IMG/VR virus record: IMGVR_UViG_3300045974_000166
Coordinates: 128,098-192,097 of that record
Strand: one strand, 5' to 3'
DNA: 64,000 nucleotides
DNA from: a virus
Positions 7,899 to 40,315 of this stretch are shown piece by piece. Below the pieces are notes generated by a model, which worked only from the letters and a program-made list of their open reading frames with translations, was not told where the DNA came from and did no database searches. Position 1 is the stretch's first letter; each line of letters begins with the position of its first letter. A program made the position numbers and the translations under genes.

Positions 7899-7901
7899 AA
7901 T

Positions 7902-7929
7902 TTTACACAAAATCTTTTTGTGATATAAT
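7902..7929 (+). promoter_or_regulatory. early promoter
   Basis: TTTACA-16-TATAAT. Confidence 0.75.
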
Positions 7930-7961
7930 GAAATTATCTATAACAATCTAGGAGTTAGATT

Positions 7962-18790: not shown

Positions 18791-19033
18791 TTGCATGATA
18801 TGAGGTACGATGAGTTTAGAATGGCTCACTATGCCACATATCAACCACAACTTCGTGGTCCAGGATTTGAAGATGAAAGCATCACCGATTGGAAAAACCG
18901 TTGGGTTACTCGTATGTCTTCTCTGCAAATCCGTACGTGCATGGTTCATGAATTTGGGCACTACAATAGTGAGTGGAAAGATGTTGCCGAGGTAGTTATT
19001 CCGGCGTCCGAATGGTATAAGGAAACAAAATGA
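18791..19033 (+). CDS. hypothetical protein
   Basis: tandem ORF. Confidence 0.55.
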   Translation: MHDMRYDEFRMAHYATYQPQLRGPGFEDESITDWKNRWVTRMSSLQIRTCMVHEFGHYNSEWKDVAEVVIPASEWYKETK

Positions 19034-20088
19034 CAGAAGTTTATGTTCGTAAAATGGCATCTATTCAAAAGATTGCCGAAGTAAAGGCTATCCCTGACGC
19101 AGACAAGATCTGTGCTTACAGGGTGAATGGCTGGTGGATTGTTGACCAAGTCGGCAAGTATGTCGTGGGTGATCTTGTTGTGTACGCAGAACCAGATTCT
19201 TTCATTCCGAGCACACTTGCACCTTTCTTGACGAAGCCAGGACATTTCCCCAAGACGTATCTTGGTGTCGAAGGTGAAAAACTTCGCACGATCCGTCTGC
19301 GCAAGCAATTGTCACAAGGGCTGTTGCTGCCATTTACTCCAGAAATTGCAATCAAGGGGTTGGGCGCTGGGCCTGGGGCAAAATTTTCGGATTATGAAGG
19401 TGCTGATGTTTCTGAATTTCTCGGCATTGTAAAGTGGGAAGCACCACCTGAGTTTACTTCTGCTGATGCTCGTGGATCATTCCCATCGTTCATCATCAAG
19501 ACTGACCAAGAACGTGTGCAAAACTGCTTCCGTGATATGGAAGAACATTTTGAACACCAAACATGGGAAGTCACAGAGAAGTGCGAAGGCTCTTCAATGA
19601 CCGTGTACCAACGTCAAGGTGATTTTGGTGTTTGCTCACGCAACTTGGATTTGAAAGAATCTGAGGACAACACATTCTGGAAGATGGCTATTGAGCTTGG
19701 TCTGAAGGAAAAGTTGATCGAAGGTGGGTTGAATATTGCTATTCAAGGTGAACTTTGTGGTCCTGGAATTCAGGGTAACATTTACAACTTGACCAAGCAC
19801 ATGTTCTTCGTGTTTGATATTTTTGACATTGACAAGTTTGAATACTTTAACCCGCACGAACGTAGGTTCCATACAGCACTGCTTGGGTTGACTGATGTGC
19901 CTGTGCTTGAACGTGAAGCAAATCTGGTTGGGCATACATGTGAATCACTGCTATCAAAGGCCGATGGCCAGTCTGTACTTGGGTTGATTGGATGCCTGCG
20001 TGAAGGTGAAGTTTACAAGTTGAATTCGAATCGGCGTATTTCATTCAAAGCAGTGTCAAATAAATATCTTGAAAAGGTTAAGGATTAA
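19030..20088 (+). CDS. ATP-dependent RNA ligase, DRB0094/Rnl2-like with N-terminal OB-like domain
   Basis: IPDADKI, LRTIRLRKQLSQGL, KTDQER, TEKCEGSS (motif I), QGELCGPGIQGN, EGEVYK, SFKAVS. Confidence 0.9.
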   Translation: MTEVYVRKMASIQKIAEVKAIPDADKICAYRVNGWWIVDQVGKYVVGDLVVYAEPDSFIPSTLAPFLTKPGHFPKTYLGVEGEKLRTIRLRKQLSQGLLLPFTPEIAIKGLGAGPGAKFSDYEGADVSEFLGIVKWEAPPEFTSADARGSFPSFIIKTDQERVQNCFRDMEEHFEHQTWEVTEKCEGSSMTVYQRQGDFGVCSRNLDLKESEDNTFWKMAIELGLKEKLIEGGLNIAIQGELCGPGIQGNIYNLTKHMFFVFDIFDIDKFEYFNPHERRFHTALLGLTDVPVLEREANLVGHTCESLLSKADGQSVLGLIGCLREGEVYKLNSNRRISFKAVSNKYLEKVKD

Positions 20089-23241: not shown

Positions 23242-23315
23242 ATTATCCCAAGACAATAGCGCAACGATAAGATCCGTGCAGACACAATTCTACAATAGCA
23301 GCACGATATTGGGAT

Positions 23316-23407
23316 GTCATTTTAAAACATACTTAGATGCTAGTTCGATTCTAGGCCTGGGTAAGAGTAGCATAATTTGGCAATGCGAACGTATGTTTTA
23401 AAATGAT
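23316..23407 (+). ncRNA. long-stem element B3 with permuted T-arm then D-arm cargo
   Basis: GTCATTTTAAAACATAC / GTATGTTTTAAAATGAT; CTAG-TTCGATT-CTAG precedes TA-GCAT-AATTTGGCA-ATGC. Confidence 0.65.
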
Positions 23408-23445
23408 TGTCTGATTGTGCATTAGTAGTTTAAGCAGAGGAAGAC

Positions 23446-23958: not shown

Positions 23959-24050
23959 GAACTCGTAGTGATGGAATTGGTAGACATAGGGCCCTTTCCG
24001 GGTCCTGCCGTAAAAAGCGTACAGGTTCGAGTCCTGTCTACAATGAGTTC
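23959..24050 (+). pseudogene. class II tRNA-like element without CCA, extended terminal stem
   Basis: Leu-type D-arm GGAATTGGTAGAC, GGGCC-CTTTCCG-GGTCC, ACAGG-TTCGAGT-CCTGT, GAACTC/GAGTTC. Confidence 0.55.
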
Positions 24051-24051
24051 G

Positions 24052-24161
24052 CATTTTAAAGTATTCTGCAACGGCCGATTGTGGTCAAATAGACGAAGAG
24101 CGTATAAGGTTGGTACCAACCTAAATCCCAGTAGGTTTATGAAGTAGAATGCTTTAAAATG
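24052..24161 (+). ncRNA. long-stem element B6
   Basis: CATTTTAAAGTATTCTGC / GTAGAATGCTTTAAAATG. Confidence 0.6.
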
Positions 24162-24283
24162 ATTTCAATCCACAATCCTCGCTCATCTGGGGATTACAAT
24201 ATGGGAATTAACCCTAAATGCGATGAGGCATTGACATCCTGTAAGGGTGTATAGCTTGAATTAACAGGGTGGATCGAAATGAT

Positions 24284-24433
24284 TTTATAGTTGAAGGCAT
24301 TGCACTATCTGAGAAACACATCAGTAGGGTTGCTCCTACACCGGTGTGAAAAGTCGGAATTCGTTCTTCGCAGAGTTCAATAACCGTATTGGGACGAAGG
24401 TAAAGTGTTTTGAACAGTGCCTTCAACTATAAA
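24284..24433 (+). ncRNA. long-stem element B7, multi-hairpin cargo
   Basis: TTTATAGTTGAAGGCATTG / CAGTGCCTTCAACTATAAA. Confidence 0.6.
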
Positions 24434-24435
24434 TA
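24428..24435 (+). promoter_or_regulatory. T4-type late promoter
   Basis: TATAAATA 7 nt before tRNA-Ala. Confidence 0.55.
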
Positions 24436-24442
24436 GAAATAT

Positions 24443-24518
24443 GGGCTGGTAGTGATACTGGGGTACACGAGGCACTTGCAATGCTTAGATTGGAGTTCGA
24501 TCCTCCACCGGTCCACCA
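24443..24518 (+). tRNA. tRNA-Ala(TGC)
   Basis: loop CTTGCAA, G3:U70, CCA. Confidence 0.92.
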
Positions 24519-24525
24519 AAAATTT

Positions 24526-24597
24526 GCGGGTTGTTTGTGGAATACGTTTAGCCTTCCAAGCTGAAAGATGCAGGTTCGAACCCTGTAGCCCGCTCCA
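24526..24597 (+). tRNA. tRNA-Gly(TCC)
   Basis: loop CTTCCAA, U73, CCA; short D-arm. Confidence 0.88.
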
Positions 24598-24606
24598 CTT
24601 TAATGA

Positions 24607-24683
24607 GTCCCAGTAGCCGAATAGGTATAGGCAGCTGTCTTAAAAGCAGTAATCTGTGGGTTCGAGTCCCACTTGGGACACCA
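24607..24683 (+). tRNA. tRNA-Leu(TAA), short variable arm
   Basis: loop CTTAAAA, A73, CCA. Confidence 0.85.
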
Positions 24684-24690
24684 AGAATAA

Positions 24691-24766
24691 GCCAATGTGG
24701 GACAGGGGTTGTCCAGCTGATTGTCTATCAGCCTTTATGACGGTTCGAGTCCGTTCGTTGGCGCCA
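24691..24766 (+). tRNA. tRNA-Asp(GTC)
   Basis: loop TTGTCTA, G73, CCA. Confidence 0.85.
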
Positions 24767-24771
24767 AGTTA

Positions 24772-24830
24772 AGGATCAGTTCAGCAAAAACTAAAAACTT
24801 TGAATCATTCTCAAACTAAAAGTTGATCCT
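24772..24830 (+). ncRNA. Y-RNA-like element Y1
   Basis: AGGATCA-GTTCAGCAA ... TGATCCT-GTT. Confidence 0.6.
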
Positions 24831-24835
24831 GTTAA

Positions 24836-24864
24836 TTTACACATATTGATGAATGTTTTATAAT
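24836..24864 (+). promoter_or_regulatory. early promoter
   Basis: TTTACA-17-TATAAT. Confidence 0.85.
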
Positions 24865-24889
24865 AACACATCAAATACGGAATTGCAAA

Positions 24890-25054
24890 ATGATTAAAGT
24901 TAACATGAAACAAATGAAAAATTGGAAGGTTACTTCTGATAACGTTAAATTCTATGACTCAATCATGAAAACAAAAGGTTCTGTAGTTACTTTAGACAAA
25001 AGACCTTATGTTGAATTACTTTGTGAGTTCAACATAATGTTTACGGCAAAATAA
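24890..25054 (+). CDS. 54-aa hypothetical protein in RNA array
   Basis: read by hand, between two promoters, GGA RBS. Confidence 0.55.
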   Translation: MIKVNMKQMKNWKVTSDNVKFYDSIMKTKGSVVTLDKRPYVELLCEFNIMFTAK

Positions 25055-25083
25055 TTTACACATAATATGGAATGATTTTAAAT
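25055..25083 (+). promoter_or_regulatory. early promoter variant
   Basis: TTTACA-17-TTAAAT. Confidence 0.65.
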
Positions 25084-25092
25084 CATTCCATC

Positions 25093-25134
25093 CAATCAAA
25101 CATCGCTTTGATTGACTAGGTTCATTAAAAAGTT
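25093..25134 (+). promoter_or_regulatory. boxB-like hairpin plus boxA-like element
   Basis: CAATCAAA-CATCGC-TTTGATTG then GTTCATTAAAAA. Confidence 0.55.
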
Positions 25135-25174
25135 ATTGAAGGATTTTCTGTGTTGACACTTAGTTGGCACAGAG

Positions 25175-25263
25175 ATCATTCCGAAGCATAAAGCAACCGT
25201 GGCAGAGATCGTCACAACTAACCATGGAATAGATGTGTTGCTCCATGTATGCTTCGGAATGAT
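25175..25263 (+). ncRNA. long-stem element B8
   Basis: 16-bp ATCATTCCGAAGCATA / TATGCTTCGGAATGAT. Confidence 0.6.
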
Positions 25264-25270
25264 GAATATT

Positions 25271-25356
25271 GGAGTAGACGCCTGAGTGGAAGGGCTCCCG
25301 GCTGTAACCCGGAGGACAGTAATGCTGTGTAGGTTCGAACCCTACCTGCTCCACCA
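25271..25356 (+). tRNA. tRNA-Tyr(GTA)
   Basis: loop CTGTAAC, long V-arm, CCA. Confidence 0.92.
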
Positions 25357-25363
25357 ATTTTAT

Positions 25364-25442
25364 TGACCATAAGCCGACAAGGTGTTAGGCGCTTGACTGT
25401 TAATCAAGAATGAGGTAGGTTCGATTCCTACATGGTCAGCCA
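25364..25442 (+). tRNA. tRNA-Asn(GTT)
   Basis: loop CTGTTAA, G73, CCA. Confidence 0.92.
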
Positions 25443-25448
25443 AGTTAT

Positions 25449-25706
25449 TTCGTTGTAGTATAGAGGAAGGTAGAGTAGTATTGAGTATGTGAGATAAGGC
25501 ATCTAGTAGTGCAAAGTAGATAACAATCGCGTAGGCTTAAAAAAACCAAACACTGTGAGCCGGGGAAGTGCCGGACAGGTTGAAATGCATGAAGAGTGAG
25601 ATAAGGCGCAGAGGGGATATGAGGGTAACTTTGGGAAATACACGGGCCACCCAGCATACGCGATTTTGGGCCCTAGTCGCAGGTTCGAGCCCTGCCAATG
25701 AAGCCA
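25449..25706 (+). ncRNA. 258-nt tRNA-shaped RNA with about 176-nt D-loop insertion
   Basis: TTCGTTG/CAATGAA-GCCA acceptor, GTAT/ATAC D-stem, GGGCC/GGCCC stem, GCAGG-TTCGAGC-CCTGC. Confidence 0.6.
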
Positions 25707-25709
25707 AGT

Positions 25710-25862
25710 TTTGAAGTGTAGATGTTGAGAACACAGGAACTCGAAAGCCCTGTAAGCAGATTTAGCGATCTATGTACCAACTATTACTACGTATCTCTAA
25801 CCCACCGCGGCTAGTATTCATGGGTAAAATGGTTCCGAATGAGGGAGACGGAACACTTCAAA
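25710..25862 (+). ncRNA. long-stem element B9
   Basis: TTTGAAGTGT / ACACTTCAAA enclosing four hairpins. Confidence 0.5.
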
Positions 25863-25871
25863 TTCATTTTT

Positions 25872-25926
25872 AGGTTCCGTTCAGCAAATTCAAAAATTTC
25901 ACTTTTAATGAAAAAATAAGGAACCT
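25872..25926 (+). ncRNA. Y-RNA-like element Y2 with Lys anticodon stem-loop
   Basis: AGGTTCC-GTTCAGCAA ... TTTCA-CTTTTAA-TGAAA ... GGAACCT-GTT. Confidence 0.65.
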
Positions 25927-25934
25927 GTTATTTT

Positions 25935-26010
25935 AGCCTTGTATTCAATCGTAGTTGAAACCTCTCTCATAAAGAGGATATAGGCGGTTAGACTCCGTCC
26001 TAGGCCACCA
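25935..26010 (+). tRNA. tRNA(CAT), Met or Ile2
   Basis: loop CTCATAA, A1:C72 mismatch, CCA. Confidence 0.8.
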
Positions 26011-26011
26011 A

Positions 26012-26386
26012 ATACTAAGTTGTTTGCTAGTAGTAGAGTAGATGGAAACCGAGCCGGAAAGATGTTCCGGTCTTCACAGAAATGTGACAAACGATAAGCA
26101 AAGTCGGTCCAGTAGGGAGTCGAAAGCAAACAATGGCGGAAAGACCTGCCGAGGACAGAAGTTAAGATCATACACAGACGGCCCACATGGTACCGACTGG
26201 CAATTCGATCCTAACGCCGTGTATTCCTTCCCAAATTGAATCAAGTGGAAAGCAAGAGCCACAAAGTAAATGTTAGATGATCATGGCTGCTCGGTCATCT
26301 TTGCTGTGATACACGGCGTCAGTTGTCCGCAAGGGTAGCAATTGAGAAACAACGGGGTAAGAATCCCAACTAAGAGTATGCCTCCA
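26012..26386 (+). ncRNA. candidate large structured RNA, about 375 nt
   Basis: long-range helices 26214-26224/26309-26319 and 26102-26108/26192-26198, terminal stem, GGG-GTAAGAAT-CCC, ends CCA. Confidence 0.6.
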
Positions 26387-26392
26387 ATTTTC

Positions 26393-26467
26393 ACCGCGTT
26401 CGACTTCTGGTGAGGTCAACAGCCTTTCAAGCTGTGTAGACGGGCTCGAAACCCGTACGCGGTACCA
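26393..26467 (+). tRNA. tRNA-Glu(TTC)
   Basis: loop CTTTCAA, T-loop CTCGAAA, CCA. Confidence 0.9.
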
Positions 26468-26470
26468 ACA

Positions 26471-26520
26471 TTTGAAGACGCCAAGGTTACCTGCACCATA
26501 ACGGCAAGCAGGACTTCAAA
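26471..26520 (+). ncRNA. small stem-closed element B10
   Basis: TTTGAAG/CTTCAAA with inner CCTGC/GCAGG. Confidence 0.35.
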
Positions 26521-26528
26521 TTCAATTC

Positions 26529-26602
26529 GCCTATGTAGCTCAATGGTAGAGCAATCGACTGATAATCGATCGACGAAGGTCCGATTCCTTACGTAGGCAC
26601 CA
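26529..26602 (+). tRNA. tRNA-Ile(GAT)
   Basis: loop CTGATAA, CCA. Confidence 0.92.
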
Positions 26603-26607
26603 AATAT

Positions 26608-26685
26608 GAGGCGTGAGCTAGTGTGGTCATTCAGCGACGGTCTGAAAAGCCGTAGAACAAGGTCCGATTCCTTGACGCCCCACCA
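26608..26685 (+). tRNA. tRNA-Phe(GAA)
   Basis: loop CTGAAAA, CCA. Confidence 0.9.
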
Positions 26686-26692
26686 AAGTTAT

Positions 26693-26785
26693 GGAGATGT
26701 GGTCGAGTCTGGTTTATGGCAACGGTCTTGAAAACCGTCGGGGACTAACCCTCCCCCGTGAGTTCGAATCTCACCGTCTCCGCCA
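26693..26785 (+). tRNA. tRNA-Ser(TGA)
   Basis: loop CTTGAAA, long V-arm, G73, CCA. Confidence 0.93.
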
Positions 26786-26793
26786 AAATTTAT

Positions 26794-26867
26794 GCACTTA
26801 GAGCCGGTTGGATAGGCAGCGGATTGCAAACCCGTGTAACTCAGTTCGATTCTGAGTAGGTGTTCCA
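26794..26867 (+). tRNA. tRNA-Cys(GCA)
   Basis: loop TTGCAAA, U73, CCA. Confidence 0.92.
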
Positions 26868-26873
26868 GTATTT

Positions 26874-26947
26874 CTCGGTATAGTTTAATAGTAGAATTTA
26901 TGCTTTGGGAGCATGGGATGGGGGTGCGATTCCTCCTACCGAGACCA
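26874..26947 (+). tRNA. tRNA-Pro(TGG)
   Basis: loop TTTGGGA, C1:G72, A73, CCA. Confidence 0.9.
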
Positions 26948-26953
26948 ATTTAA

Positions 26954-27030
26954 CAGTATGTGGTGACAAGTGGACGTCGACTAGTTTTGGAAACTAGAAT
27001 ATATCGGTTCGAGGCCGATCATACTGACCA
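26954..27030 (+). tRNA. tRNA-Pro(TGG), second copy with A37
   Basis: loop TTTGGAA, C1:G72, A73, CCA. Confidence 0.85.
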
Positions 27031-27131
27031 TTTTAAGTAAGACATTCGGGTTGACCACAAGGCCACGTGCCAAGGTAAGGTGTCTGAAGTATAAGCAACA
27101 GGTTTGGTCATGCTTATGCACGAAAAAGTTT

Positions 27132-27209
27132 TGAGTAGTTACAGCAATTAATAAAATCTGGCTGAGGGTTTCGATTTCCCTCTTTAATCAAAAAGTAGAT
27201 CACTACTCA
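27132..27209 (+). ncRNA. Y-RNA-like element Y3 with T-arm cargo
   Basis: TGAGTAG-TTACAGCAA ... GAGGG-TTTCGATTT-CCCTC ... CTACTCA-GTT. Confidence 0.6.
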
Positions 27210-27219
27210 GTTATATTAC

Positions 27220-27294
27220 CTGCCATTCGTATAGTGAATAATACAACTTTCTTCTAAAGAGTGAACGGGAGTTTGATTCTCTCATGGCGGACCA
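27220..27294 (+). tRNA. tRNA-Arg(TCT)
   Basis: loop CTTCTAA, CCA. Confidence 0.88.
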
Positions 27295-27318
27295 AAGATC
27301 ATTAAGAATAAAAATAAC

Positions 27319-27326
27319 TATAAATA
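27319..27326 (+). promoter_or_regulatory. T4-type late promoter
   Basis: TATAAATA 8 nt before tRNA-Gly. Confidence 0.6.
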
Positions 27327-27334
27327 GTAAGTAT

Positions 27335-27408
27335 GTGGGGTTAGTTAAATGGTAGAACCAAACGTTGCCAACGTTTAGACACGGGTCCGATTCCCGTACC
27401 TCACACCA
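27335..27408 (+). tRNA. tRNA-Gly(GCC)
   Basis: loop TTGCCAA, CCA; A73 atypical. Confidence 0.88.
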
Positions 27409-27413
27409 AATTT

Positions 27414-27488
27414 GCTCTCAAAGCATAGACAGCGATGCAGGGGTCTTGTAAGCCTCAGAGTAGGGCGCAAGTCCTTATGGGAGCACCA
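27414..27488 (+). tRNA. tRNA-Thr(TGT)
   Basis: loop CTTGTAA, T-loop CGCAAGT, CCA. Confidence 0.88.
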
Positions 27489-27493
27489 AATTA

Positions 27494-27567
27494 CGCAGGT
27501 AGTGTAGCCAACAATCCTCTCTCATAAGGACGGATCATCGGAGGTGCGAATCCTTCACCTGCACCCA
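27494..27567 (+). tRNA. initiator-like tRNA-Met(CAT), degenerate D-arm
   Basis: C1:A72 mismatch, loop CTCATAA, CCA. Confidence 0.7.
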
Positions 27568-27592
27568 TTTAATCATAGAAAGGCATCATATC

Positions 27593-28156
27593 ATGAATAG
27601 GTATCCATTAGTGCTAACACTAGATTCTGCAGGTATTCCGCAGAGATGGTCTACCTGGGAAGAAGGTGTCGTGGCAAAATACAAAGGCGTTATCGCTTGG
27701 TCACTTGGTGAAGAAACCATCTACCGGGGCGGTAACTCAAGACTTACTGGCGAACAATCAACCGTAGCAGTTCCATCTATTATTGCTATTCGATCTATGG
27801 GTCGTACAAAGAACCGAGCAGTGCCACTTACAAACAAGAATTTGTTTGGGCGTGACCGGAACATTTGTTGTTACTGTGGTACTCATGTGAAAGATCATGA
27901 CGCTACACGTGACCATATTGTTCCGTATGCTAAGAAAGGTACGAACGTTTGGATGAATGTTGTTACTGCATGTAAGCCTTGCAATAACTATAAGGATGAC
28001 AAAACTGTAGAACAAGCTGGGCTAGAGATGCTATATGCACCTTATGTCCCAGATCGTGCAGAAGCTTTGATTCTTGCCAACCGTAACATTTTGGCAGATC
28101 AAATGGAATTCTTATTGGCACATTTGCCTAAGCATTCTCGGGCACGACCACATTAG
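27593..28156 (+). CDS. HNH endonuclease (McrA/HNH_5-like)
   Basis: NLFGRDRNICCYCG, TRDHIVP, NVVTACKPCNNYK. Confidence 0.92.
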   Translation: MNRYPLVLTLDSAGIPQRWSTWEEGVVAKYKGVIAWSLGEETIYRGGNSRLTGEQSTVAVPSIIAIRSMGRTKNRAVPLTNKNLFGRDRNICCYCGTHVKDHDATRDHIVPYAKKGTNVWMNVVTACKPCNNYKDDKTVEQAGLEMLYAPYVPDRAEALILANRNILADQMEFLLAHLPKHSRARPH

Positions 28157-28245
28157 GGGTGTGGGCAGGATGGTAATGCAGCGGTTTGCTAAACCGTAGA
28201 GTCCCTCAAAAGGCTCACAGGGTCCGATTCCCTGACACTCCGCCA
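28156..28245 (+). tRNA. tRNA-Ser(GCT)
   Basis: loop TTGCTAA, long V-arm, G73, CCA. Confidence 0.92.
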
Positions 28246-28250
28246 ATTTT

Positions 28251-28362
28251 AGGATCAGTTCAGCATTTAATATACCAAGCAGCTTGTTGTGAGTTCGATT
28301 CTCACCTTCCGAGTAATCGGTTGTAGTTCAACGGTAGAACAGCCGCCAATTAAAGTGATCCT
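28251..28362 (+). ncRNA. Y-RNA-like element Y4, YrlA-type circularly permuted tRNA module
   Basis: AGGATCA-GTTCAGCA; T-arm GTGAG-TTCGATT-CTCAC; acceptor closed by CCGA-GTAA-TCGG; TA-GTTC-AACGGTA-GAAC D-arm; TGATCCT. Confidence 0.8.
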
Positions 28363-28373
28363 GCTAAATATAC

Positions 28374-28449
28374 TGGGGGTTTGTCATTTGGTAATGACAC
28401 TGCGCTTTGACCGCAGGAAAGTCGGGTCCGATTCCCACACCCTCTGCCA
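28374..28449 (+). tRNA. tRNA-Gln(TTG)
   Basis: loop CTTTGAC, G73, CCA. Confidence 0.88.
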
Positions 28450-28484
28450 ACATTATTGATTTTTAACTAGATGGAGTACTCCAA

Positions 28485-28637
28485 ATGAAAGATAGAAGTG
28501 TGAAACATAAAGAAGCCCTGAGCCGTAACACGGAATGGGCAAAACTTTCCCCTACTGAGCAATTAGCTCAACTGGATAAGTTGGGTTTGGTAGCAACCAA
28601 ACAGCGAAAGAAAATTGCTGCTAAAATGGCAGCTTGA
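28485..28637 (+). CDS. 50-aa basic hypothetical protein
   Basis: read by hand, GGAG RBS. Confidence 0.65.
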   Translation: MKDRSVKHKEALSRNTEWAKLSPTEQLAQLDKLGLVATKQRKKIAAKMAA

Positions 28638-28644
28638 GATATAC

Positions 28645-28718
28645 AGGTGGTTGGTGTAATGGCAACATTGCGGTCTCCAAAATCGTCGATCGGGGTTCGA
28701 GTCCCTGGCTGCCTGCCA
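28645..28718 (+). tRNA. tRNA-Trp(CCA)
   Basis: loop CTCCAAA, G73, CCA. Confidence 0.9.
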
Positions 28719-28731
28719 AGACAATTTAGGT

Positions 28732-28804
28732 GTGGCCTTATCATAAAAGTAATGACCTAGGCTGTGAACTTAGTTAAGAGGGAGCATTACCCTCAGGTCA
28801 CCCC
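28732..28804 (+). tRNA. tRNA-His(GTG), no encoded CCA
   Basis: loop CTGTGAA, C73, T-loop AGCATTA. Confidence 0.8.
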
Positions 28805-28816
28805 TAAATTGTTTTT

Positions 28817-28893
28817 GCGGATGTGGCGAAATTGGTAAACGCAGCGGTCTTAGAAGCCGTAGGCTGTGGGTTCGAGTCCCACCATCCGCACCA
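28817..28893 (+). tRNA. tRNA-Leu(TAG), short variable arm
   Basis: loop CTTAGAA, Leu-type D-loop, A73, CCA. Confidence 0.9.
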
Positions 28894-28970
28894 AAATTTA
28901 CGGGGAGCAACTAATCATTGCCGCTATATGTCCATACCCCGTGGGTATAGTGTTTCCCTGTAAAACTTAC

Positions 28971-29045
28971 ATCTCTGTAGTACAACGGAAAGTATCTAAG
29001 TTTGCGAAACTTAAGACGGTGGTTCGACTCCACCCAGAGGTACCA
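28971..29045 (+). tRNA. tRNA-Arg(GCG)
   Basis: loop TTGCGAA, CCA. Confidence 0.85.
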
Positions 29046-29061
29046 TCATTAAAGGAAAATC

Positions 29062-29250
29062 ATGAAAAAACTTATCGCTCTCATTACATTGGCTTTTGCC
29101 TCTACCGCTTTTGCTGCTGCTTCGGCACCTCGCGTACATGTACAACTCAAGGTTGCTCAGCCACCAGTCCAAGCAGCTGTTAATGAAACAAAACTAAAGC
29201 AGCGTGCTGCTAAGTTGGCCAAGGCCAAGGCTAAAGCCGCTTCTAAGTAA
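29062..29250 (+). CDS. small secreted Ala/Lys-rich protein
   Basis: signal peptide MKKLIALITLAFASTAFA, AAAGGA RBS. Confidence 0.75.
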   Translation: MKKLIALITLAFASTAFAAASAPRVHVQLKVAQPPVQAAVNETKLKQRAAKLAKAKAKAASK

Positions 29251-29321
29251 GAAGTACTCCGACACAGATACTGTATCTCGTCTGTGTTGGGGAGGGTGGA
29301 ATACAGCCACCCGAGAGATAC

Positions 29322-29398
29322 GTCCATGTAGCCGAATTGGTATAGGCACCTGTTTCAAAAGCAGTCATCTGTGGGTTCGAGTCCCACCTTGGACACCA
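29322..29398 (+). tRNA. tRNA-Leu(CAA), short variable arm
   Basis: loop TTCAAAA; paralogue of the 24607 tRNA; CCA. Confidence 0.82.
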
Positions 29399-29408
29399 AC
29401 CAAATTAT

Positions 29409-29483
29409 GCGCGGGTAGCTCAGAGGAAGAGCAACTCTTTTACACGGAGAAGGTCGAGATTTCAAAATTCTCCCTGCGCACCA
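29409..29483 (+). tRNA. tRNA-Val(TAC)
   Basis: loop TTTACAC, CCA. Confidence 0.88.
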
Positions 29484-29491
29484 AAACATTA

Positions 29492-29566
29492 GGGTCGTTA
29501 GTACAACGAATAGTATCATTGTCTTCGAAACAATAGATAAAGGTTTGACTCCTTTACGACCCCCCA
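29492..29566 (+). tRNA. tRNA-Arg(TCG)
   Basis: loop CTTCGAA, C73 atypical, CCA. Confidence 0.85.
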
Positions 29567-29571
29567 ACATC

Positions 29572-29646
29572 GCCCAGTTATTTCAGTGGTAGTAATAAAT
29601 CTTTGGTAAGGATTAGACGGGGGTTCGATTCCCCCACAGGGCACCA
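29572..29646 (+). tRNA. tRNA-Thr(GGT)
   Basis: loop TTGGTAA, CCA. Confidence 0.88.
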
Positions 29647-29652
29647 AATAAA

Positions 29653-29737
29653 GCGAATGTGGCGTAACTGGTAGCCGCGCTAGTCTAAGAAGCTAGTGGA
29701 GAAATCCGTGTCGGTTCGAGTCCGACCATTCGCACCA
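29653..29737 (+). tRNA. tRNA-Leu(AAG), A34
   Basis: CTAGT-CTAAGAA-GCTAG, long V-arm, A73, CCA. Confidence 0.88.
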
Positions 29738-29743
29738 TATTAA

Positions 29744-29772
29744 TGTACACATACTTCTGAGTATAGTATAAT
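29744..29772 (+). promoter_or_regulatory. early promoter variant
   Basis: TGTACA-17-TATAAT. Confidence 0.7.
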
Positions 29773-29798
29773 GAACTATCTAAATTCAAAAGATTGTC

Positions 29799-30158
29799 AT
29801 GCTTTTAACATCTCTTATTGTCAGTGTTCACCTTTTAAGTCTTCACGATGCGCCTGGATTTCAGGCCGTTACTCCCGGACTTAGTATTCGTGAACCCGAA
29901 ACTGGTTTGACTGTTGGGATACTCAAAAATTCCGAAGGCGGAGATTCAGTATTCGCCGGCAAACTTATGGAACACAAAAACTATGGACTATTCATTGGTG
30001 CAATCACAGGATACAAATCTGCATCTGTGCTCCCAATGGTTGTCCCTAGTTACAAAATTAACCTAGCCAATGATGTTAATCTGCGGTTTAGTTATTTGGC
30101 CAAGGTTAACTCCAATGGCGCAAATGCAATTCACTTTTCAATTGAAAAGAAATTTTAA
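29799..30158 (+). CDS. small exported beta-rich protein, possible outer-membrane barrel
   Basis: hydrophobic N-terminus, TPGL, GAITGY, C-terminal Phe. Confidence 0.6.
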   Translation: MLLTSLIVSVHLLSLHDAPGFQAVTPGLSIREPETGLTVGILKNSEGGDSVFAGKLMEHKNYGLFIGAITGYKSASVLPMVVPSYKINLANDVNLRFSYLAKVNSNGANAIHFSIEKKF

Positions 30159-30173
30159 TCAAGGAAAATCAAA

Positions 30174-30194
30174 ATGAAAACTAGTAAACGCTAG
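30174..30194 (+). other. mini-ORF MKTSKR with two AAA codons
   Basis: AAGGA RBS; ATG AAA ACT AGT AAA CGC TAG followed by a hairpin. Confidence 0.45.
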
Positions 30195-30256
30195 TGTCAT
30201 TACTCAACCCCGTGTAGGTTCTGTGATGGCACGTAAAAGAAATTTTATACACATCA

Positions 30257-30331
30257 CCACCCTAAACTTTGATAGTGAAGTCCGGCCTCTTAAGCCGAGA
30301 GAACTCAGTGCAATTCTGAGAGAGTGGACCA
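30257..30331 (+). tRNA. tRNA-Lys(CTT)
   Basis: loop CTCTTAA, T-loop TGCAATT, CCA. Confidence 0.85.
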
Positions 30332-30336
30332 TACAC

Positions 30337-30410
30337 GGGGTTGAAACTTTAAAGTGAAGTACCGGTCTTTTAAACCGGCTAATTCGGAGCGTTACCGAAC
30401 TACCCTACCA
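30337..30410 (+). tRNA. tRNA-Lys(TTT)
   Basis: loop CTTTTAA, T-loop AGCGTTA, CCA. Confidence 0.85.
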
Positions 30411-30505
30411 TATCTAAATACACTATCGTTTGATCAACGACGCTTGGAGCTACCGGAACAGCATGCACCGGGTGAGGTTCGATTCCTCTAGTGTATTTAG
30501 ATATG
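30409..30505 (+). ncRNA. long-stem element B11 with tRNA-like cargo
   Basis: 17-bp CATATCTAAATACACTA / TAGTGTATTTAGATATG; inner GAGG-TTCGATT-CCTC. Confidence 0.6.
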
Positions 30506-30579
30506 GTACAGTAGCATTAAGATAATGCAACATCTTCATACGGTGTCCTAAGTGGGTTTGATTCCCACCCGTACCACCA
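30505..30579 (+). tRNA. tRNA(CAT), Met or Ile2
   Basis: loop TTCATAC, CCA. Confidence 0.85.
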
Positions 30580-31595: not shown

Positions 31596-32720
31596 ATGAT
31601 AATATTGTCATTAAATACTTGTTCTATGGCCAACATAACTAATATCATGAAACCAACTATTCTATTCATTCTCAAACGTCGCGAAGATTACGACCAAGAG
31701 AAACATTCACCACAGGGTTTGAGCACTGGCTTGTACAATTCTGCTTCATTCATGAGAGATATGCTACTTGCTGTCGGTGTAGATGCACGACTAGAAGTTG
31801 CAATTGATAACAACTGTATTGATCGCCTAGTAACAAAGCATAAACCAACTCATGTGATTATAGAGGCTCTTTGGGTAGTACCTAGTAAATTTACAATTTT
31901 ATCTCAACTACATAAATCTGTTACTTGGATAATTCGACTACATTCAGAGTTGCCATTTTTGGCCGGGGAAGGTATGGCAATGGATTGGATTGGCGACTAC
32001 TCAAAGTATCCAAACATCATTATTGGTATTAATGCCCCACGACTTATGGAAGAAGTAAAAGTATATCTGCAGATTAAGAATAATTTGACAGATGAAGAAC
32101 TTAAAAAGAAAGTTGTCTATCTGCCGAATTACTACCCACAGAACTATGTCAGAAAAGAATTTGATAATAGTAAAGAAACAATAGATGTTTGTTGCTTCGG
32201 AGCTGTAAGACCTTTCAAGAACCACATGATTCAGGCAATTGCTGCACTGAAATTTGCCAAAGTACTTGGTAAGAAATTAAATTTCCATATTAACTCTGGT
32301 CGAACTGAGATGAAGGGTGAACCTGTACTAAGTAATCTCAGAGCAATGTTCCAGCATCTATATGATCAAGGCCATAGTCTTACAGGTCATGAATGGACAC
32401 CTCGAGAAGAATTTTTAAAAACTTGCGCATCTATGGACATCGGAATGCAAGTATCATTTTCAGAAACTTTCAATATTGTCGGTGCCGACATCGTCAGTCA
32501 GGGTGTTCCTCTAGTTGGGTCAATTGAAATTCCATGGATGTCTACTCAGTGTACAGCTACGCCACAAAATCATGATGAAATTGTAAATACACTACTGCGT
32601 TCTTATGACAATCCTCAGGCAAATGTAAAAAATAACCAACAATTGCTAACCCATTATACCAACAAGACTCAGAAGATCTGGGTAAATTATTTTACACATG
32701 GGGTGACATATGCATTTTAA
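31596..32720 (+). CDS. GT-B fold glycosyltransferase, GT4-like (start probably about 31647)
   Basis: FGAVRPFKN, MQVSFSETFNIV, GVPLVGS. Confidence 0.7.
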   Translation: MIILSLNTCSMANITNIMKPTILFILKRREDYDQEKHSPQGLSTGLYNSASFMRDMLLAVGVDARLEVAIDNNCIDRLVTKHKPTHVIIEALWVVPSKFTILSQLHKSVTWIIRLHSELPFLAGEGMAMDWIGDYSKYPNIIIGINAPRLMEEVKVYLQIKNNLTDEELKKKVVYLPNYYPQNYVRKEFDNSKETIDVCCFGAVRPFKNHMIQAIAALKFAKVLGKKLNFHINSGRTEMKGEPVLSNLRAMFQHLYDQGHSLTGHEWTPREEFLKTCASMDIGMQVSFSETFNIVGADIVSQGVPLVGSIEIPWMSTQCTATPQNHDEIVNTLLRSYDNPQANVKNNQQLLTHYTNKTQKIWVNYFTHGVTYAF

Positions 32721-38335: not shown

Positions 38336-38452
38336 AGGATCGGTTCTGCAATATTAAAAATTAAAGGACGTTGCTTGATACCCGGACAACAAACTCCGGA
38401 TTCAGTAACACACAAGCTCTAGATCTTGTAAAAAATCTATAAAGACGATCCT
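38336..38452 (+). ncRNA. Y-RNA-like element Y5
   Basis: AGGATCG-GTTCTGCAA ... CGATCCT-GTT. Confidence 0.65.
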
Positions 38453-38468
38453 GTTAAAATTTGATTAG

Positions 38469-38584
38469 AGGTTGGGTTCAGCAAATACTTAGCGGCTTCG
38501 CGGCCGCACCTAGTAAGATGCCTTCGGGTATCACAGTGAGTTTGGAATGTCTCACTGCAAAAACAAAAAGTACAAAACCAACCT
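38469..38584 (+). ncRNA. Y-RNA-like element Y6
   Basis: AGGTTGG-GTTCAGCAA ... CCAACCT-GTT; two TTCG hairpins inside. Confidence 0.65.
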
Positions 38585-38595
38585 GTTATTTGTAA

Positions 38596-38853
38596 AGGAT
38601 GAGTACAGCATTTAAAATACAAGCTAATGTCCGAAGAATGTGCCGGTAGGATGATAGAAATATCAGCTCTGATGATTTAAAATCAGGGCCACAGAAGGAA
38701 CGGGATAGGTCGGCAAAGTACCGAATATATTGTCTCTGGTAGAAAAATCACAGAGACTAGGTAACATGAATTGTTGCTAGGGTCGCAGTAACTGAACCAA
38801 AACACAGGGGATGCAGGCGACCAGAACACTAAAATACTACGTTACACCATCCT
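38596..38853 (+). ncRNA. Y-RNA-like element Y7, large multi-hairpin cargo
   Basis: AGGATG-AGTACAGCAT ... CATCCT-GTT. Confidence 0.6.
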
Positions 38854-38896
38854 GTTAGTTTAGGTCGATATTGACCTGTTATAGAAAGAGAATATT

Positions 38897-40315
38897 ATGA
38901 ACGCATTCGTAAACGCCATTGCTGAACAAATTCAACGTACCGAAAACGGTATGAAGGCTCGTGCATCCACAGCTAACGCCTGTGTTGACCTGTTTTTCGC
39001 TATCGGTGCAAGCCGTGGCAAGAACATCATCCCTCAATTCACGGCGGCATTCGTAGAGAACTCTGACCTGGCTCTCCGCATCGTTGCGTGGGCTCGTGAC
39101 GTTCGTGGTGGTGCGGGTGAACGTGAAATCTTCCGTTCGGTGCTTTCACATCTCGAAACCGCTAATCCAGCGGCCGCTGTGGCTCTTGTTAAGAAGGTGC
39201 CTGAATTGGGCCGCTTCGATGATCTGTTGATCTTCAAGACTAAGCCTCTGAAGGAAACTGCTTACACTATCTTGGGTGACGCTCTGCGCGCTCAAAATGG
39301 TCTGGCGGCAAAGTGGACTCCTCGTAAGGGTGATGTCGCACGTGAAATCCGTGAGTTCTTCGGTATGAGCCCAAAGTTTTACCGCAAGTCTTTGGTGACA
39401 ATGTCTACTACTGTTGAGCAACAAATGTGTGCCGGCAAGTGGGATGACATCAACTACTCCCATGTGCCTTCGGTTGCTCATGCACGTTACAAGAAGGCCT
39501 TTGGTCGCCACGGTACAACCTATGCTGAGTACATCACCAAGTTGGTTAAGGGTGATGACCCAACTGTGAAGATCAATGCTTCGGCAATCTTCCCACATGA
39601 CGTGCTGAAGGGTCGTATCGACGGCTACGACATGACTTGGAATAAGCAAGAGCTCGATGTGATCGAAGCTCAATGGGCTGCTCTGCCTAACTACATTGGT
39701 GACGCTTCGGTGTTGCCATTGGTTGACGTGTCTGGCTCGATGACTTGTCCAGCGGGTAATAAGGGTACAACTACTTGTTTGGAAATTGCAGTGTCTCTGG
39801 GCCTGTACTTTGCAGACAAGAACAAGGGTGCCTTTAAGGACTGTATGCTGACTTTCAGCGACAAGCCACAGTTGGTGAAGCTGAAGGGCAACATCAACGA
39901 GAAGATCAACCAAATGGTCGCCGCTGATTGGGGCATGCGTACTAATCTGCACTCGGCATTCAACACAATCTTGGATGCAGCAGTGAAGAACTCTGTGCCA
40001 TCGGCAGATATGCCAGGTACTATGGTTATCTTCTCGGATATGCAATTCAATGCTTGTGTGCGTAACGATGACTCTGCCATGGAGATGATTGAACGTAAGT
40101 TTGCGGATGCAGGTTACACTGTGCCTAAGATTGTGTTCTGGAACTTGAACGCTGGTAACAACGTTCCTGTGAAGTTCGACAAGACTGGTGCCGCTCTGGT
40201 ATCTGGTTTCAGCCCAGCGGTTGCTTCGGCAATCTTGTCTGGTAATATAGACGACTTCACCCCAGAAGCGATCATGCTGAAGGCTGTGATGCAAACTCGA
40301 TACGATTTGGTATAA
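38897..40315 (+). CDS. DUF2828-family helical + vWA protein, Ro60/TROVE-like architecture
   Basis: RDVRGGAGER, GRFDDLL, AAKWTPR, vWA MIDAS VDVSGSM, TFSD, FSDMQF, VFWNL, VSGFS. Confidence 0.85.
   Translation: MNAFVNAIAEQIQRTENGMKARASTANACVDLFFAIGASRGKNIIPQFTAAFVENSDLALRIVAWARDVRGGAGEREIFRSVLSHLETANPAAAVALVKKVPELGRFDDLLIFKTKPLKETAYTILGDALRAQNGLAAKWTPRKGDVAREIREFFGMSPKFYRKSLVTMSTTVEQQMCAGKWDDINYSHVPSVAHARYKKAFGRHGTTYAEYITKLVKGDDPTVKINASAIFPHDVLKGRIDGYDMTWNKQELDVIEAQWAALPNYIGDASVLPLVDVSGSMTCPAGNKGTTTCLEIAVSLGLYFADKNKGAFKDCMLTFSDKPQLVKLKGNINEKINQMVAADWGMRTNLHSAFNTILDAAVKNSVPSADMPGTMVIFSDMQFNACVRNDDSAMEMIERKFADAGYTVPKIVFWNLNAGNNVPVKFDKTGAALVSGFSPAVASAILSGNIDDFTPEAIMLKAVMQTRYDLV

What the first reader, a model, noticed from the sequence alone, without database searches (positions are those of the whole stretch)
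28251..28362. Circularly permuted tRNA module (YrlA architecture) inside Y-like copy Y4
Seen: inside the closing stem the order is anticodon-stem equivalent (GCAGCT), variable loop, T-arm GTGAG-TTCGATT-CTCAC, acceptor stem closed by a GTAA tetraloop (CCGA-GTAA-TCGG), TA, D-arm GTTC-AACGGTA-GAAC, then the partner strand AGCCGC. This is a tRNA opened at the anticodon and sealed at the acceptor end. Established: bacterial YrlA Y RNAs have this topology. This is the strongest independent support that the 7-copy family is Y-RNA-related.
Basis: partly seen in the sequence, partly recalled or inferred. Interest (0 to 1): 0.8.

Follow-up and report, generated by a model that had tools for sequence, protein, structure and literature searches.

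The report
Phage Y-type RNA with permuted tRNA
A 116-base non-coding RNA gene in this phage's tRNA array holds a tRNA body in rearranged order inside a conserved stem "handle", and that handle travels with a Ro60-shaped protein gene in very different phages, so it is probably a new branch of the Ro60/Y-RNA particles.

Summary
Window 28251-28366 (+) reads: 7-bp closing stem, GUUCAGCA, linker, anticodon-stem 3' strand, variable loop, T arm, acceptor stem sealed by GUAA, U8-A9, D arm, A26, anticodon-stem 5' strand, linker, closing stem, GCUA.

A covariance model built from five relatives without Y4 finds it at 67.6 bits (E 1.6e-12). Across 72 distinct relatives, 97.6% of paired cells pair and 25 of 27 pairs show compensatory changes. 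Put back in normal order in silico, 21 of 25 modules, Y4 included, are called tRNA by ARAGORN. None is called in the native order.

It has the YrlA architecture but is not a canonical YrlA. Rfam gives 31.3 bits against a cut-off of 69, and the GNCGAAN0-1G Ro60-binding motif is replaced by NNNCAGCA...GUUA.

The likely partner is the DUF2828+vWA protein at 38897-40315. Its predicted fold matches Ro60/Rsr (Z up to 15.6), and three handle RNAs lie just upstream of it. Nine of ten records with a Y4-type RNA encode this protein on the same strand. The same handle flanks the homologous gene in Mycobacterium, Listeria, Staphylococcus, Bacillus and Synechococcus phages.

Binding and function are inferred. 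Earlier notes of this scan on the same genome (e1-5832459, e1-5832462) reached a related reading.

The parts
28251..28257 (+). Closing-stem 5' strand AGGAUCA (the handle)
   Evidence: 7/7 pairs with 28356-28362. Stem positions 4-7 covary among copies and relatives.
28258..28265 (+). Conserved handle motif GUUCAGCA (family consensus NNNCAGCA)
   Evidence: CAGCA is invariant in the alignment of 15 Y4-type RNAs. It is present in all 7 window copies (CUGCA in one) and in handle RNAs of Mycobacterium, Listeria, Staphylococcus and Bacillus phages.
28266..28278 (+). A/U-rich linker ending in CCAA
   Evidence: Direct reading and parse. A CAA ending recurs in 5 of 25 relatives.
28279..28283 (+). Anticodon-stem equivalent, 3' strand GCAGC
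   Evidence: Pairs 4/5 with 28342-28346. All 5 pairs of this helix show compensatory changes in the family.
28284..28288 (+). Variable loop UUGUU (U48 as Levitt partner of A15)
   Evidence: In 25 relatives, 15:48 is G:C in 10 and A:U in 7.
28289..28305 (+). T arm GUGAG-UUCGAUU-CUCAC
   Evidence: Partial tRNA-model match to positions 46-63. Helix 3 is 99.6% paired, with 4 of 5 pairs compensatory.
28306..28323 (+). Acceptor-stem equivalent closed by a GUAA tetraloop (CUUCCGA-GUAA-UCGGUUG)
   Evidence: 5/7 pairs in Y4 (two U.U), 6-7/7 in most relatives. All 6 modelled pairs are compensatory.
28324..28341 (+). U8-A9, D arm GUUC-AACGGUA-GAAC, A26
   Evidence: U8 in 23/25, A14 in 24/25 and GG in the D loop in 25/25 relatives. 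Helix 5 is 97.2% paired.
28342..28346 (+). Anticodon-stem equivalent, 5' strand GCCGC
28347..28355 (+). Linker CAAUUAAAG, in the place of the anticodon loop
   Evidence: There is no 7-nt anticodon loop. A CAA start recurs in relatives.
28356..28366 (+). Closing-stem 3' strand UGAUCCU plus conserved tail GCUA (family GUUA)
   Evidence: CCUG-UA is invariant in Y4-type relatives.
24772..24834 (+). Family copy whose cargo is a 5-bp/7-nt hairpin (loop AUCAUUC)
   Evidence: R1 scores 27.9 bits.
25872..25930 (+). Family copy whose cargo is a 5-bp hairpin with loop CUUUUAA (tRNA-Lys UUU anticodon-loop look-alike)
   Evidence: R1 scores 33.2 bits.
27132..27213 (+). Family copy whose cargo is a lone T-arm-like hairpin (GAGGG-UUUCGAUUU-CCCUC)
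38336..38856 (+). Three tandem family copies (38336-38456, 38469-38588, 38596-38856) directly upstream of the Ro60-like gene
   Evidence: The same arrangement is seen in related loci, with 99 handle matches on the + strand against 4 on the - strand.
38897..40315 (+). 472-aa DUF2828 + DUF7788 (vWA) protein with a Ro60/Rsr-like fold; proposed protein partner
   Evidence: Pfam hits. Foldseek's top 13 hits are all Ro60/TROVE. VIA-align gives Z 15.6, 14.1 and 11.8 over 340-371 residues.
28156..28245 (+). Upstream tRNA-Ser(GCU), ending in CCA 5 nt before Y4
28374..28446 (+). Downstream weak tRNA, starting 7 nt after Y4
   Evidence: Rfam tRNA 31.1 bits; not called by ARAGORN.

Best explanation
Y4 is a stable non-coding RNA of the Y-RNA type with two modules. 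Module 1 is a handle shared by all seven copies: a 7-bp terminal stem, NNNCAGCA on the 5' side and a GUUA/GCUA tail. I propose that it docks the RNA on the phage's own Ro60-shaped protein (DUF2828+vWA, 38897-40315). Module 2 is the cargo: a tRNA body without an anticodon loop, joined to the handle through its anticodon stem and sealed at the acceptor end. It can fold into the tRNA L-shape and so present a tRNA elbow to tRNA-recognising proteins (modification enzymes, RNase P, repair ligases or host tRNA-cutting nucleases).

The RNA is made as part of the polycistronic tRNA-array transcript and is released when the flanking tRNAs are processed. Sister copies carry other tRNA parts on the same handle, such as anticodon stem-loop look-alikes or a lone T arm. 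The particle therefore most likely tethers the Ro60-like ring to tRNA-directed factors, or baits them, during infection.

Shown here by computation: the conserved structure, the tRNA likeness, the family, the Ro60-like predicted fold, and the genomic co-occurrence. Inferred: transcription and processing, binding to the protein, and the downstream function.
For: Structure. Model R1, built without Y4, scores it 67.6 bits, E 1.6e-12. On 72 distinct relatives, 97.6% of cells pair, against 68% in shuffles and 35-47% when the partner is slid. 25 of 27 pairs have compensatory changes, spread over all five helices.

tRNA likeness. U8, A14, GG and the Levitt-pair statistics fit tRNA. ARAGORN of 25 re-permuted modules as tRNA and 0 of 25 in native order. 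The Rfam YrlA model aligns Y4 over its full length in the same element order.

Partner protein. Foldseek and VIA-align put only Ro60/Rsr/TROVE chains on top, over the full length.

Linkage. Three copies lie directly upstream of the gene. Handle RNAs lie upstream of the gene in related loci, 99 on the + strand against 4 on the - strand. Nine of ten records found by an RNA-only pattern encode the protein, always on the same strand and 0.1-10.5 kb downstream of the RNA. The same ACAGCA handle sits in tandem next to the homologous gene in Mycobacterium phage Gabriela (one copy with a permuted tRNA module), Listeria LMTA-148, Staphylococcus 6ec, Bacillus PBC2 and Synechococcus BUCT-ZZ01.

Transcription. 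No promoter or terminator above chance lies on the + strand around Y4.

Precedent. Ro60 with YrlA, where the tRNA-like domain is the effector-binding module (PMC4201824; 10.1101/312249).
Against: The protein model is of middling confidence (pLDDT 67.7) and shows no sequence-level match to Ro60. Y4 lies 10.5 kb from the protein gene. The canonical Ro60-binding motif is absent. A strict handle scan found nothing next to the homologous gene in Felixounavirus Alf5, Campylobacter F348, Vibrio 6E35-1b or GAP32. Co-occurrence was not compared with a matched background of tRNA-rich phages that lack the protein. The covariation counts come from an alignment fitted to the model.
Confidence: 0.68

Rival explanations
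1. The handle is a processing or stability clamp that protects the small RNAs from exonucleases or marks cleavage sites. It acts without the Ro60-like protein. The tRNA-like cargo then works alone, as a decoy or sponge for host tRNA-cutting defence nucleases or for tRNA-modifying enzymes.
For: Four of the seven copies lie in the tRNA array, 10-14 kb from the protein gene. Short relatives carry loops that read like anticodon loops, such as CUUUUAA, CUGUAAA and CUGUUAA, which fits a decoy role. Some DUF2828-encoding phages showed no handle in a strict scan.
Against: An invariant single-stranded CAGCA and a conserved GUUA tail are more than a clamp needs. The handle is kept next to the protein gene across phages of Actinobacteria, Firmicutes and cyanobacteria while the stem sequence changes freely. 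Nine of ten RNA-defined records encode the protein.
Confidence: 0.15
2. Y4 is a precursor that RNase P and 3' processing open at the acceptor loop. The result is a two-piece or re-ligated tRNA-like molecule with free ends, as reported for M. smegmatis YrlA or for the permuted tRNA genes of red algae.
For: Many relatives have perfect 7-bp acceptor stems, the main determinant of RNase P cleavage according to PMC4201824. Some relatives carry ACCA or CCA directly after the acceptor 3' strand (L170 1093-1196, L101 493-607).
Against: Y4's own acceptor stem has only 5/7 pairs and a tight GUAA loop with no CCA. No member of this layout has an anticodon loop, so no decoding tRNA can result. No splicing-type motif was looked for or seen.
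Confidence: 0.08
3. Y4 is a canonical YrlA that works with a host-encoded Rsr/Ro60 rather than with the phage protein.
For: Full-length alignment to Rfam YrlA (31.3 bits, E 2e-5 on the local stretch). The element order is the same.
Against: The score is below the cut-off of 69, as it is for all relatives (30-42 bits). The GNCGAAN0-1G motif is absent. A different handle is co-conserved with the phage's own Ro60-like gene. The host is unknown.
Confidence: 0.04
4. Y4 is debris of tRNA gene rearrangement (the 3' half of one tRNA joined to the 5' half of the next) and has no function of its own. That is the known tandem-tRNA false positive of YrlA searches.
For: It sits in a tRNA array. The tandem tRNA-Leu/Val junction scores 25.8 bits with the YrlA model, and the 2014 paper warns of this artefact.
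Against: The two acceptor strands pair with each other across a tetraloop. All five helices covary over 72 distinct sequences. The handle is conserved. R1 gives only one partial tRNA-junction hit in 595 kb.
Confidence: 0.03

Closest known systems
YrlA, the tRNA-like Y RNAs bound by bacterial Ro60/Rsr (Rfam RF02553; Chen et al. 2014, PMC4201824; Wang et al. 2018, 10.1101/312249)
   Same: Both have two modules: a terminal helix and a tRNA-like domain in the order V, T arm, closed acceptor stem-loop, D arm. Both keep the tRNA tertiary nucleotides, including the G15:C48 or A15:U48 alternation. Both are genomically linked to a Ro60-fold protein, lie close to RNA ligase genes, and occur in phages.
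   Different: The handle is NNNCAGCA plus a GUUA tail, not GNCGAAN0-1G. Rfam scores are 30-42 bits against a cut-off of 69. The partner candidate is a DUF2828+DUF7788 protein that the Pfam TROVE model does not detect. The genes sit inside phage tRNA arrays. The same handle also carries other cargos: anticodon-loop look-alikes, lone T arms, long RNAs.
Ro60/Rsr proteins (D. radiodurans Rsr 2nvo; Xenopus Ro 1yvp; Thermus phage phiLo Ro60 9l5y)
   Same: The predicted fold of the 472-aa protein aligns over 340-371 residues, covering a helical N-terminal part and a vWA domain (Z 11.8-15.6).
   Different: No sequence-level similarity was detected, identity is 12-18%, and the model confidence is middling.
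Circularly permuted tRNA genes of Cyanidioschyzon merolae and some archaea (from own knowledge and the discussion in 10.1101/312249)
   Same: The 3' half precedes the 5' half, the acceptor end is initially closed, and the two RNA ends pair.
   Different: Y4 has no anticodon-loop nucleotides, so no decoding tRNA can be made.
Phage T4 stable RNAs species 1 and 2 (rnaC, rnaD) in the T4 tRNA cluster (from own knowledge)
   Same: They are small stable non-tRNA RNAs encoded among the tRNA genes of a T4-type phage and released by tRNA processing.
   Different: No sequence or structural relation was tested. No Ro60-like partner is known for them.

Membership tests
YrlA (Rfam RF02553) | Score at or above the curated gathering cut-off (69 bits) | tested here: not met
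   Y4 scores 31.3 bits. Relatives score 30.8-41.8 bits.
YrlA (Rfam RF02553) | tRNA-like domain in the order variable region, T arm, closed acceptor stem-loop, D arm, enclosed by helices formed from the 5' and 3' parts | tested here: met
   Full-length alignment to the model structure, parse, covariation in all helices, re-permutation test.
YrlA (Rfam RF02553) | Conserved tRNA tertiary-interaction nucleotides, including a 15:48 Levitt pair that switches between G:C and A:U | tested here: met
   Y4 has U8, A14, A15:U48, G18G19 and UUCGAUU. In the family: U8 23/25, A14 24/25, GG 25/25, G:C 10 and A:U 7. This is sequence-level evidence only.
YrlA (Rfam RF02553) | Ro60-binding motif GNCGAAN0-1G on the 5' strand of the terminal helix (PMC4201824) | tested here: not met
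   The 5' strand reads AGGAUCA-GUUCAGCA. The family consensus is NNNCAGCA.
YrlA (Rfam RF02553) | Encoded next to a TROVE-domain Ro60/Rsr gene | tested here: inconclusive
   The Pfam TROVE model finds nothing in the 192-kb genome. However, a Ro60-fold DUF2828 protein gene lies 10.5 kb downstream with three sister RNAs directly upstream.
YrlA (Rfam RF02553) | Bound by Ro60/Rsr and modified by TruB and DusA in vivo | not testable with these tools
   Needs immunoprecipitation and modification mapping.
tRNA (Rfam RF00005) | Cloverleaf in native order with an anticodon loop and a free acceptor end | tested here: not met
   Only the T arm matches (12.1 bits). ARAGORN makes no call in native order. 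There is no anticodon loop.
Permuted tRNA genes (red-algal/archaeal type) | The two ends can be joined to give a 7-nt anticodon loop, and so a decoding tRNA | tested here: not met
   The linkers beside the anticodon-stem equivalent are 13 and 9 nt of A/U-rich sequence that run into the handle. Splicing motifs were not searched for.
Ro60/TROVE proteins (for ORF 38897-40315) | Helical-repeat part plus C-terminal vWA domain with the Ro60 fold | tested here: met
   Foldseek's top 13 hits are all Ro60/TROVE, E down to 5.5e-9. VIA-align gives Z 15.6/14.1/11.8 over 340-371 residues, whereas plain vWA domains reach at most 10.2 over residues 268-450 only. The model is predicted, pLDDT 67.7.
Ro60/TROVE proteins (for ORF 38897-40315) | Match to Pfam TROVE (PF05731) | tested here: not met
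   No match in the genome. Pfam gives DUF2828 and DUF7788 instead.

The most novel reading that the evidence does not exclude
DUF2828-type Ro60-like proteins and ACAGCA-handle RNAs form a widespread, undescribed phage ribonucleoprotein. It would occur in phages of Actinobacteria, Firmicutes and cyanobacteria and in uncultured T4-like phages. Its RNAs would be modular display scaffolds for interchangeable tRNA parts: anticodon stem-loops of particular tRNAs, T arms, or whole tRNA bodies permuted at either end. They would serve to bait host tRNA-cutting defence nucleases, or to guide repair of cut tRNAs together with the phage RNA ligase.
Probability: 0.3. Interest if true: 0.85.

Novelty: new variant of a known kind. 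Interest (0 to 1): 0.7.

Why it matters
Y RNAs are known as partners of canonical Ro60, and what their tRNA-like domain binds is still open. This family uses a different protein-binding handle. It pairs with a Ro60-shaped protein family that domain libraries file only as DUFs and that has homologues in about 700 sequenced phage genomes. The same handle also carries a range of tRNA fragments.

That gives an experimentally tractable route to ask what Ro60-type particles do with tRNA-like RNAs, because cultured phages carry the system (M. smegmatis, Listeria, Staphylococcus, Bacillus, Synechococcus elongatus). It also adds a plausible player to the phage-host conflict over tRNA cleavage and repair.

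Tried and rejected
- Rfam at gathering thresholds found only tRNAs.
- The single-sequence fold gave z -1.71. It recovers the closing stem, the T arm and the acceptor hairpin, but not the D arm or the anticodon-type stem.
- The match at 19864 was rejected as a family copy: it lies inside the RNA ligase ORF and has no 3' partner.
- Eighty loci fetched through the neighbouring 374-aa protein (31596-32720) were not syntenic and held no convincing handle RNAs.
- Sequence searches of the Ro60-like protein against solved structures found nothing relevant, with either the single sequence or the profile.
- The supplementary tables of the 2014 YrlA paper are not held. I therefore could not check whether its list of phage YrlA RNAs already includes RNAs with this handle.
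- 'DUF2828' occurs in five held papers, none of them about phages or RNA.
- A strict handle scan found nothing beside the homologous gene in Felixounavirus Alf5, Campylobacter F348, Vibrio 6E35-1b or Cronobacter GAP32. Diverged handles are not excluded.
- Complex prediction was not used, because the tool takes no RNA chains.

Full report
**What is there**

The window is the last third of a 192,097-bp, CheckV-complete IMG/VR virus record. The phage is of the T4 type: it has gp32, a family-B DNA polymerase and a clamp loader. It carries a + strand array of about 27 tRNA genes at 23962-30576.

The finding lies between tRNA-Ser(GCU), which ends at 28245, and a weak tRNA that starts at 28374. Read directly and parsed, 28251-28366 consists of:
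- AGGAUCA, the closing stem
- GUUCAGCA
- a 13-nt A/U-rich linker
- GCAGC
- UUGUU
- GUGAG-UUCGAUU-CUCAC
- CUUCCGA-GUAA-UCGGUUG
- UA
- GUUC-AACGGUA-GAAC
- A
- GCCGC
- a 9-nt linker
- UGAUCCU
- GCUA

Three weak points remain. There is one C.A mismatch in the anticodon-type stem. There are two U.U mismatches in the acceptor-type stem. The single-sequence folding energy is unremarkable (z -1.71).

**Is it more than chance?**

The Rfam YrlA model aligns the element end to end in the same order of parts. It scores only 31.3 bits against a cut-off of 69, and a tandem tRNA-Leu/Val junction in the window reaches 25.8 bits. That match alone is therefore weak, and the 2014 paper itself names dimeric tRNAs as a false-positive source.

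I looked for relatives instead. An RNA-only pattern (CAGCA, gap, GTTCGATTC, gap, CCTGYTA) found 61 places in IMG/VR. Of these, 33 have the closing stem, giving 20 distinct sequences.

A covariance model built from five of them, without Y4, recovers Y4 at 67.6 bits, E 1.6e-12, and finds many further members. On the resulting alignment of 72 distinct sequences:
- 97.6% of cells pair, against 68% in shuffles and 35-47% with slid partners.
- 25 of 27 pairs carry compensatory changes, spread over all five helices.
- The caveat is that this alignment is fitted to the model.

In 25 distinct members with the full module, U8 is present in 23, A14 in 24 and GG in the D loop in all. Positions 15:48 are G:C in 10 and A:U in 7. 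That is the same alternation reported for YrlA.

As a test by an unrelated program, I re-permuted each module in silico: acceptor loop opened, anticodon-type stem closed with a generic 7-nt loop. ARAGORN then of 25 as tRNA, Y4 included, and none in native order.

The module is thus a circularly permuted tRNA body without an anticodon loop. A second layout exists in relatives, with a small hairpin, T arm, closed acceptor, D arm and a complete anticodon-like hairpin.

**The family**

The handle (7-bp stem, NNNCAGCA, 3' tail GUUA or GCUA) occurs seven times in the genome, at 24772, 25872, 27132, 28251, 38336, 38469 and 38596. All copies are on the + strand, against about 1.15 matches in shuffled genomes. 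Stem positions 4-7 differ between copies but stay complementary. The match at 19864 is chance.

The cargos differ:
- a hairpin with loop AUCAUUC (24772)
- a hairpin with the tRNA-Lys-like loop CUUUUAA (25872)
- a lone T-arm-like hairpin (27132)
- the tRNA body (Y4)
- three longer RNAs (38336-38856)

Short relatives elsewhere often carry 5-bp/7-nt hairpins whose loops read CU-NNN-AA, with NNN being UUU, GUA, GUU, GAA, UGU, CAA, GCA, CUU or CAU.

**The likely partner**

The three copies at 38336-38856 end 41 nt before a 472-aa ORF (38897-40315). Pfam calls this ORF DUF2828 plus DUF7788, with a weak vWA match.

The Pfam TROVE model finds nothing in the genome, and sequence searches against solved structures are empty. 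However, an AlphaFold model (pLDDT 67.7) has only Ro60/Rsr/TROVE chains as its 13 best Foldseek matches. VIA-align gives Z 15.6, 14.1 and 11.8 over 340-371 residues for a TROVE-domain structure, the Thermus phage phiLo Ro60 and D. radiodurans Rsr. Ordinary vWA domains reach at most 10.2 and cover only residues 268-450.

Homologues occur in 702 phage records, where they are annotated as 'RNA-binding protein' or 'Ro-like RNA binding protein'.

**Linkage of RNA and protein**

In 80 IMG/VR loci fetched through the protein, handle RNAs lie just upstream of the gene. There are 99 matches on the gene's strand against 4 on the other.

Conversely, 9 of 10 records found only through the Y4-type RNA pattern encode the protein. 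It is always on the same strand, with the RNA 0.1-10.5 kb upstream. One of them is a complete 70-kb phage whose gene contains six in-frame TGA codons and is preceded by five tandem handle RNAs.

The handle also stands next to the homologous gene in cultured, very distant phages:
- Synechococcus phage BUCT-ZZ01: three copies upstream.
- Mycobacterium phage Gabriela: three copies downstream. The middle one has a permuted tRNA module, and the protein is again DUF2828+DUF7788.
- Listeria phage LMTA-148: three copies upstream.
- Staphylococcus phage 6ec: one copy downstream.
- Bacillus phage PBC2: five copies upstream. One encloses a tRNA body that matches positions 6-65 of the tRNA model, so there the handle replaces the acceptor stem.

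No Rfam family covers these RNAs. A strict scan found none in four other homologue-bearing phages.

**How it most likely works**

By analogy with Ro60 and YrlA, the terminal helix binds the ring protein and the tRNA-like domain binds an effector (10.1101/312249). I propose that the CAGCA handle docks on the DUF2828 Ro60-like protein and the permuted tRNA body presents a tRNA elbow to tRNA-recognising factors.

Y4 has no promoter or terminator of its own above chance and lies 5 and 7 nt from its neighbouring tRNAs. It is therefore probably released from the array transcript by ordinary tRNA processing.

Several observations point to tRNA damage, repair or decoy functions, but that step is inference:
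- the variety of tRNA parts on one handle
- the RNA ligase gene in the window (19030-20088)
- the ligase directly beside the homologue in GAP32
- the RtcB-type ligase near it in the Listeria phage

**Comparison and novelty**

The element works like a YrlA and has its architecture, but it fails three membership features: the Rfam cut-off, the GNCGAAN0-1G motif, and a Pfam-TROVE neighbour. I file it as a new variant of the Y-RNA kind.

Phage YrlA RNAs near Ro60 genes were reported in 2014, but the list is in supplements I could not read. I found no paper that describes this handle or pairs RNAs with DUF2828 proteins.

Earlier notes of this scan on the same genome had already proposed the operon of three Y-like RNAs with the DUF2828 protein (e1-5832459). 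They had also proposed a second, different handle family linked to the Ro60-like gene (e1-5832462). My tests agree with the first. They add the cross-phylum conservation of the handle, the independent model, the covariation counts and the re-permutation test.

Noticed in passing
window 23307-23419 (+): A second YrlA-like permuted tRNA module (Rfam YrlA 28.7 bits, full length).
   Followed up: partly
window 25872-25930 and 24772-24834; short relatives in L180, L192, L216, L230, L166, L009 and others: Minimal handle RNAs whose only cargo is a 5-bp stem with a 7-nt loop that reads like an anticodon loop (CUUUUAA, CUGUAAA, CUGUUAA, CUGAAAA, CUCAUAA and others). These are possible anticodon stem-loop mimics of particular tRNAs.
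   Followed up: partly
L245 269-395 (Bacillus phage PBC2, NC_071040): A handle RNA encloses a tRNA body with a GAU anticodon arm (tRNA model positions 6-65, 55.5 bits), with the handle in place of the acceptor stem. The record annotates a tRNA-Ile here.
   Followed up: no
L205 2554-3016 (IMGVR_UViG_3300037042_003631): A GOLLD RNA (197 bits, above the cut-off of 150) lies in the tRNA array of a related phage, about 560 nt upstream of its Y4-type RNA.
   Followed up: no
L242 469-1020 (Listeria phage LMTA-148): A ROOL-like RNA (90 bits, just under the cut-off of 99.1) lies about 650 nt upstream of the three handle RNAs and the DUF2828 gene.
   Followed up: no
L009 5575-5830 (Synechococcus phage BUCT-ZZ01): Two tRNA-like genes downstream of the Ro60-like gene share an identical insert of roughly 35 nt at the anticodon region (it begins AAAACGCATTCTGTAAAGAATG). 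This could be an intron or another embedded element.
   Followed up: no
G009 (IMGVR_UViG_3300030685_000003, 70 kb, terminal repeats), gene at 7267-8631: The Ro60-like homologue has six in-frame TGA codons, which suggests a phage that reads TGA as a sense codon. Five tandem handle RNAs lie directly upstream.
   Followed up: no
window 19030-20088 (+); L010 1504-2769 (GAP32); L242 4852-5506: RNA ligase genes accompany the Ro60-like gene. An Rnl2-type PHA02142 ligase lies in the window, the same type lies directly beside the homologue in GAP32, and a 'tRNA splicing ligase' lies 1.3 kb downstream in the Listeria phage.
   Followed up: no
window 28374-28446 (+): The tRNA just after Y4 scores only 31.1 bits with the Rfam tRNA model and is not called by ARAGORN. 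It may be another non-standard tRNA-like RNA.
   Followed up: no
L170 1093-1196, L178 8017-8113, L206 3251-3347: A subclass of handle RNAs has a T arm followed by an acceptor-type 3' strand and then ACCA inside the loop, that is, an encoded CCA end. These are candidates for cleavage into a molecule with a free tRNA-like 3' end.
   Followed up: no
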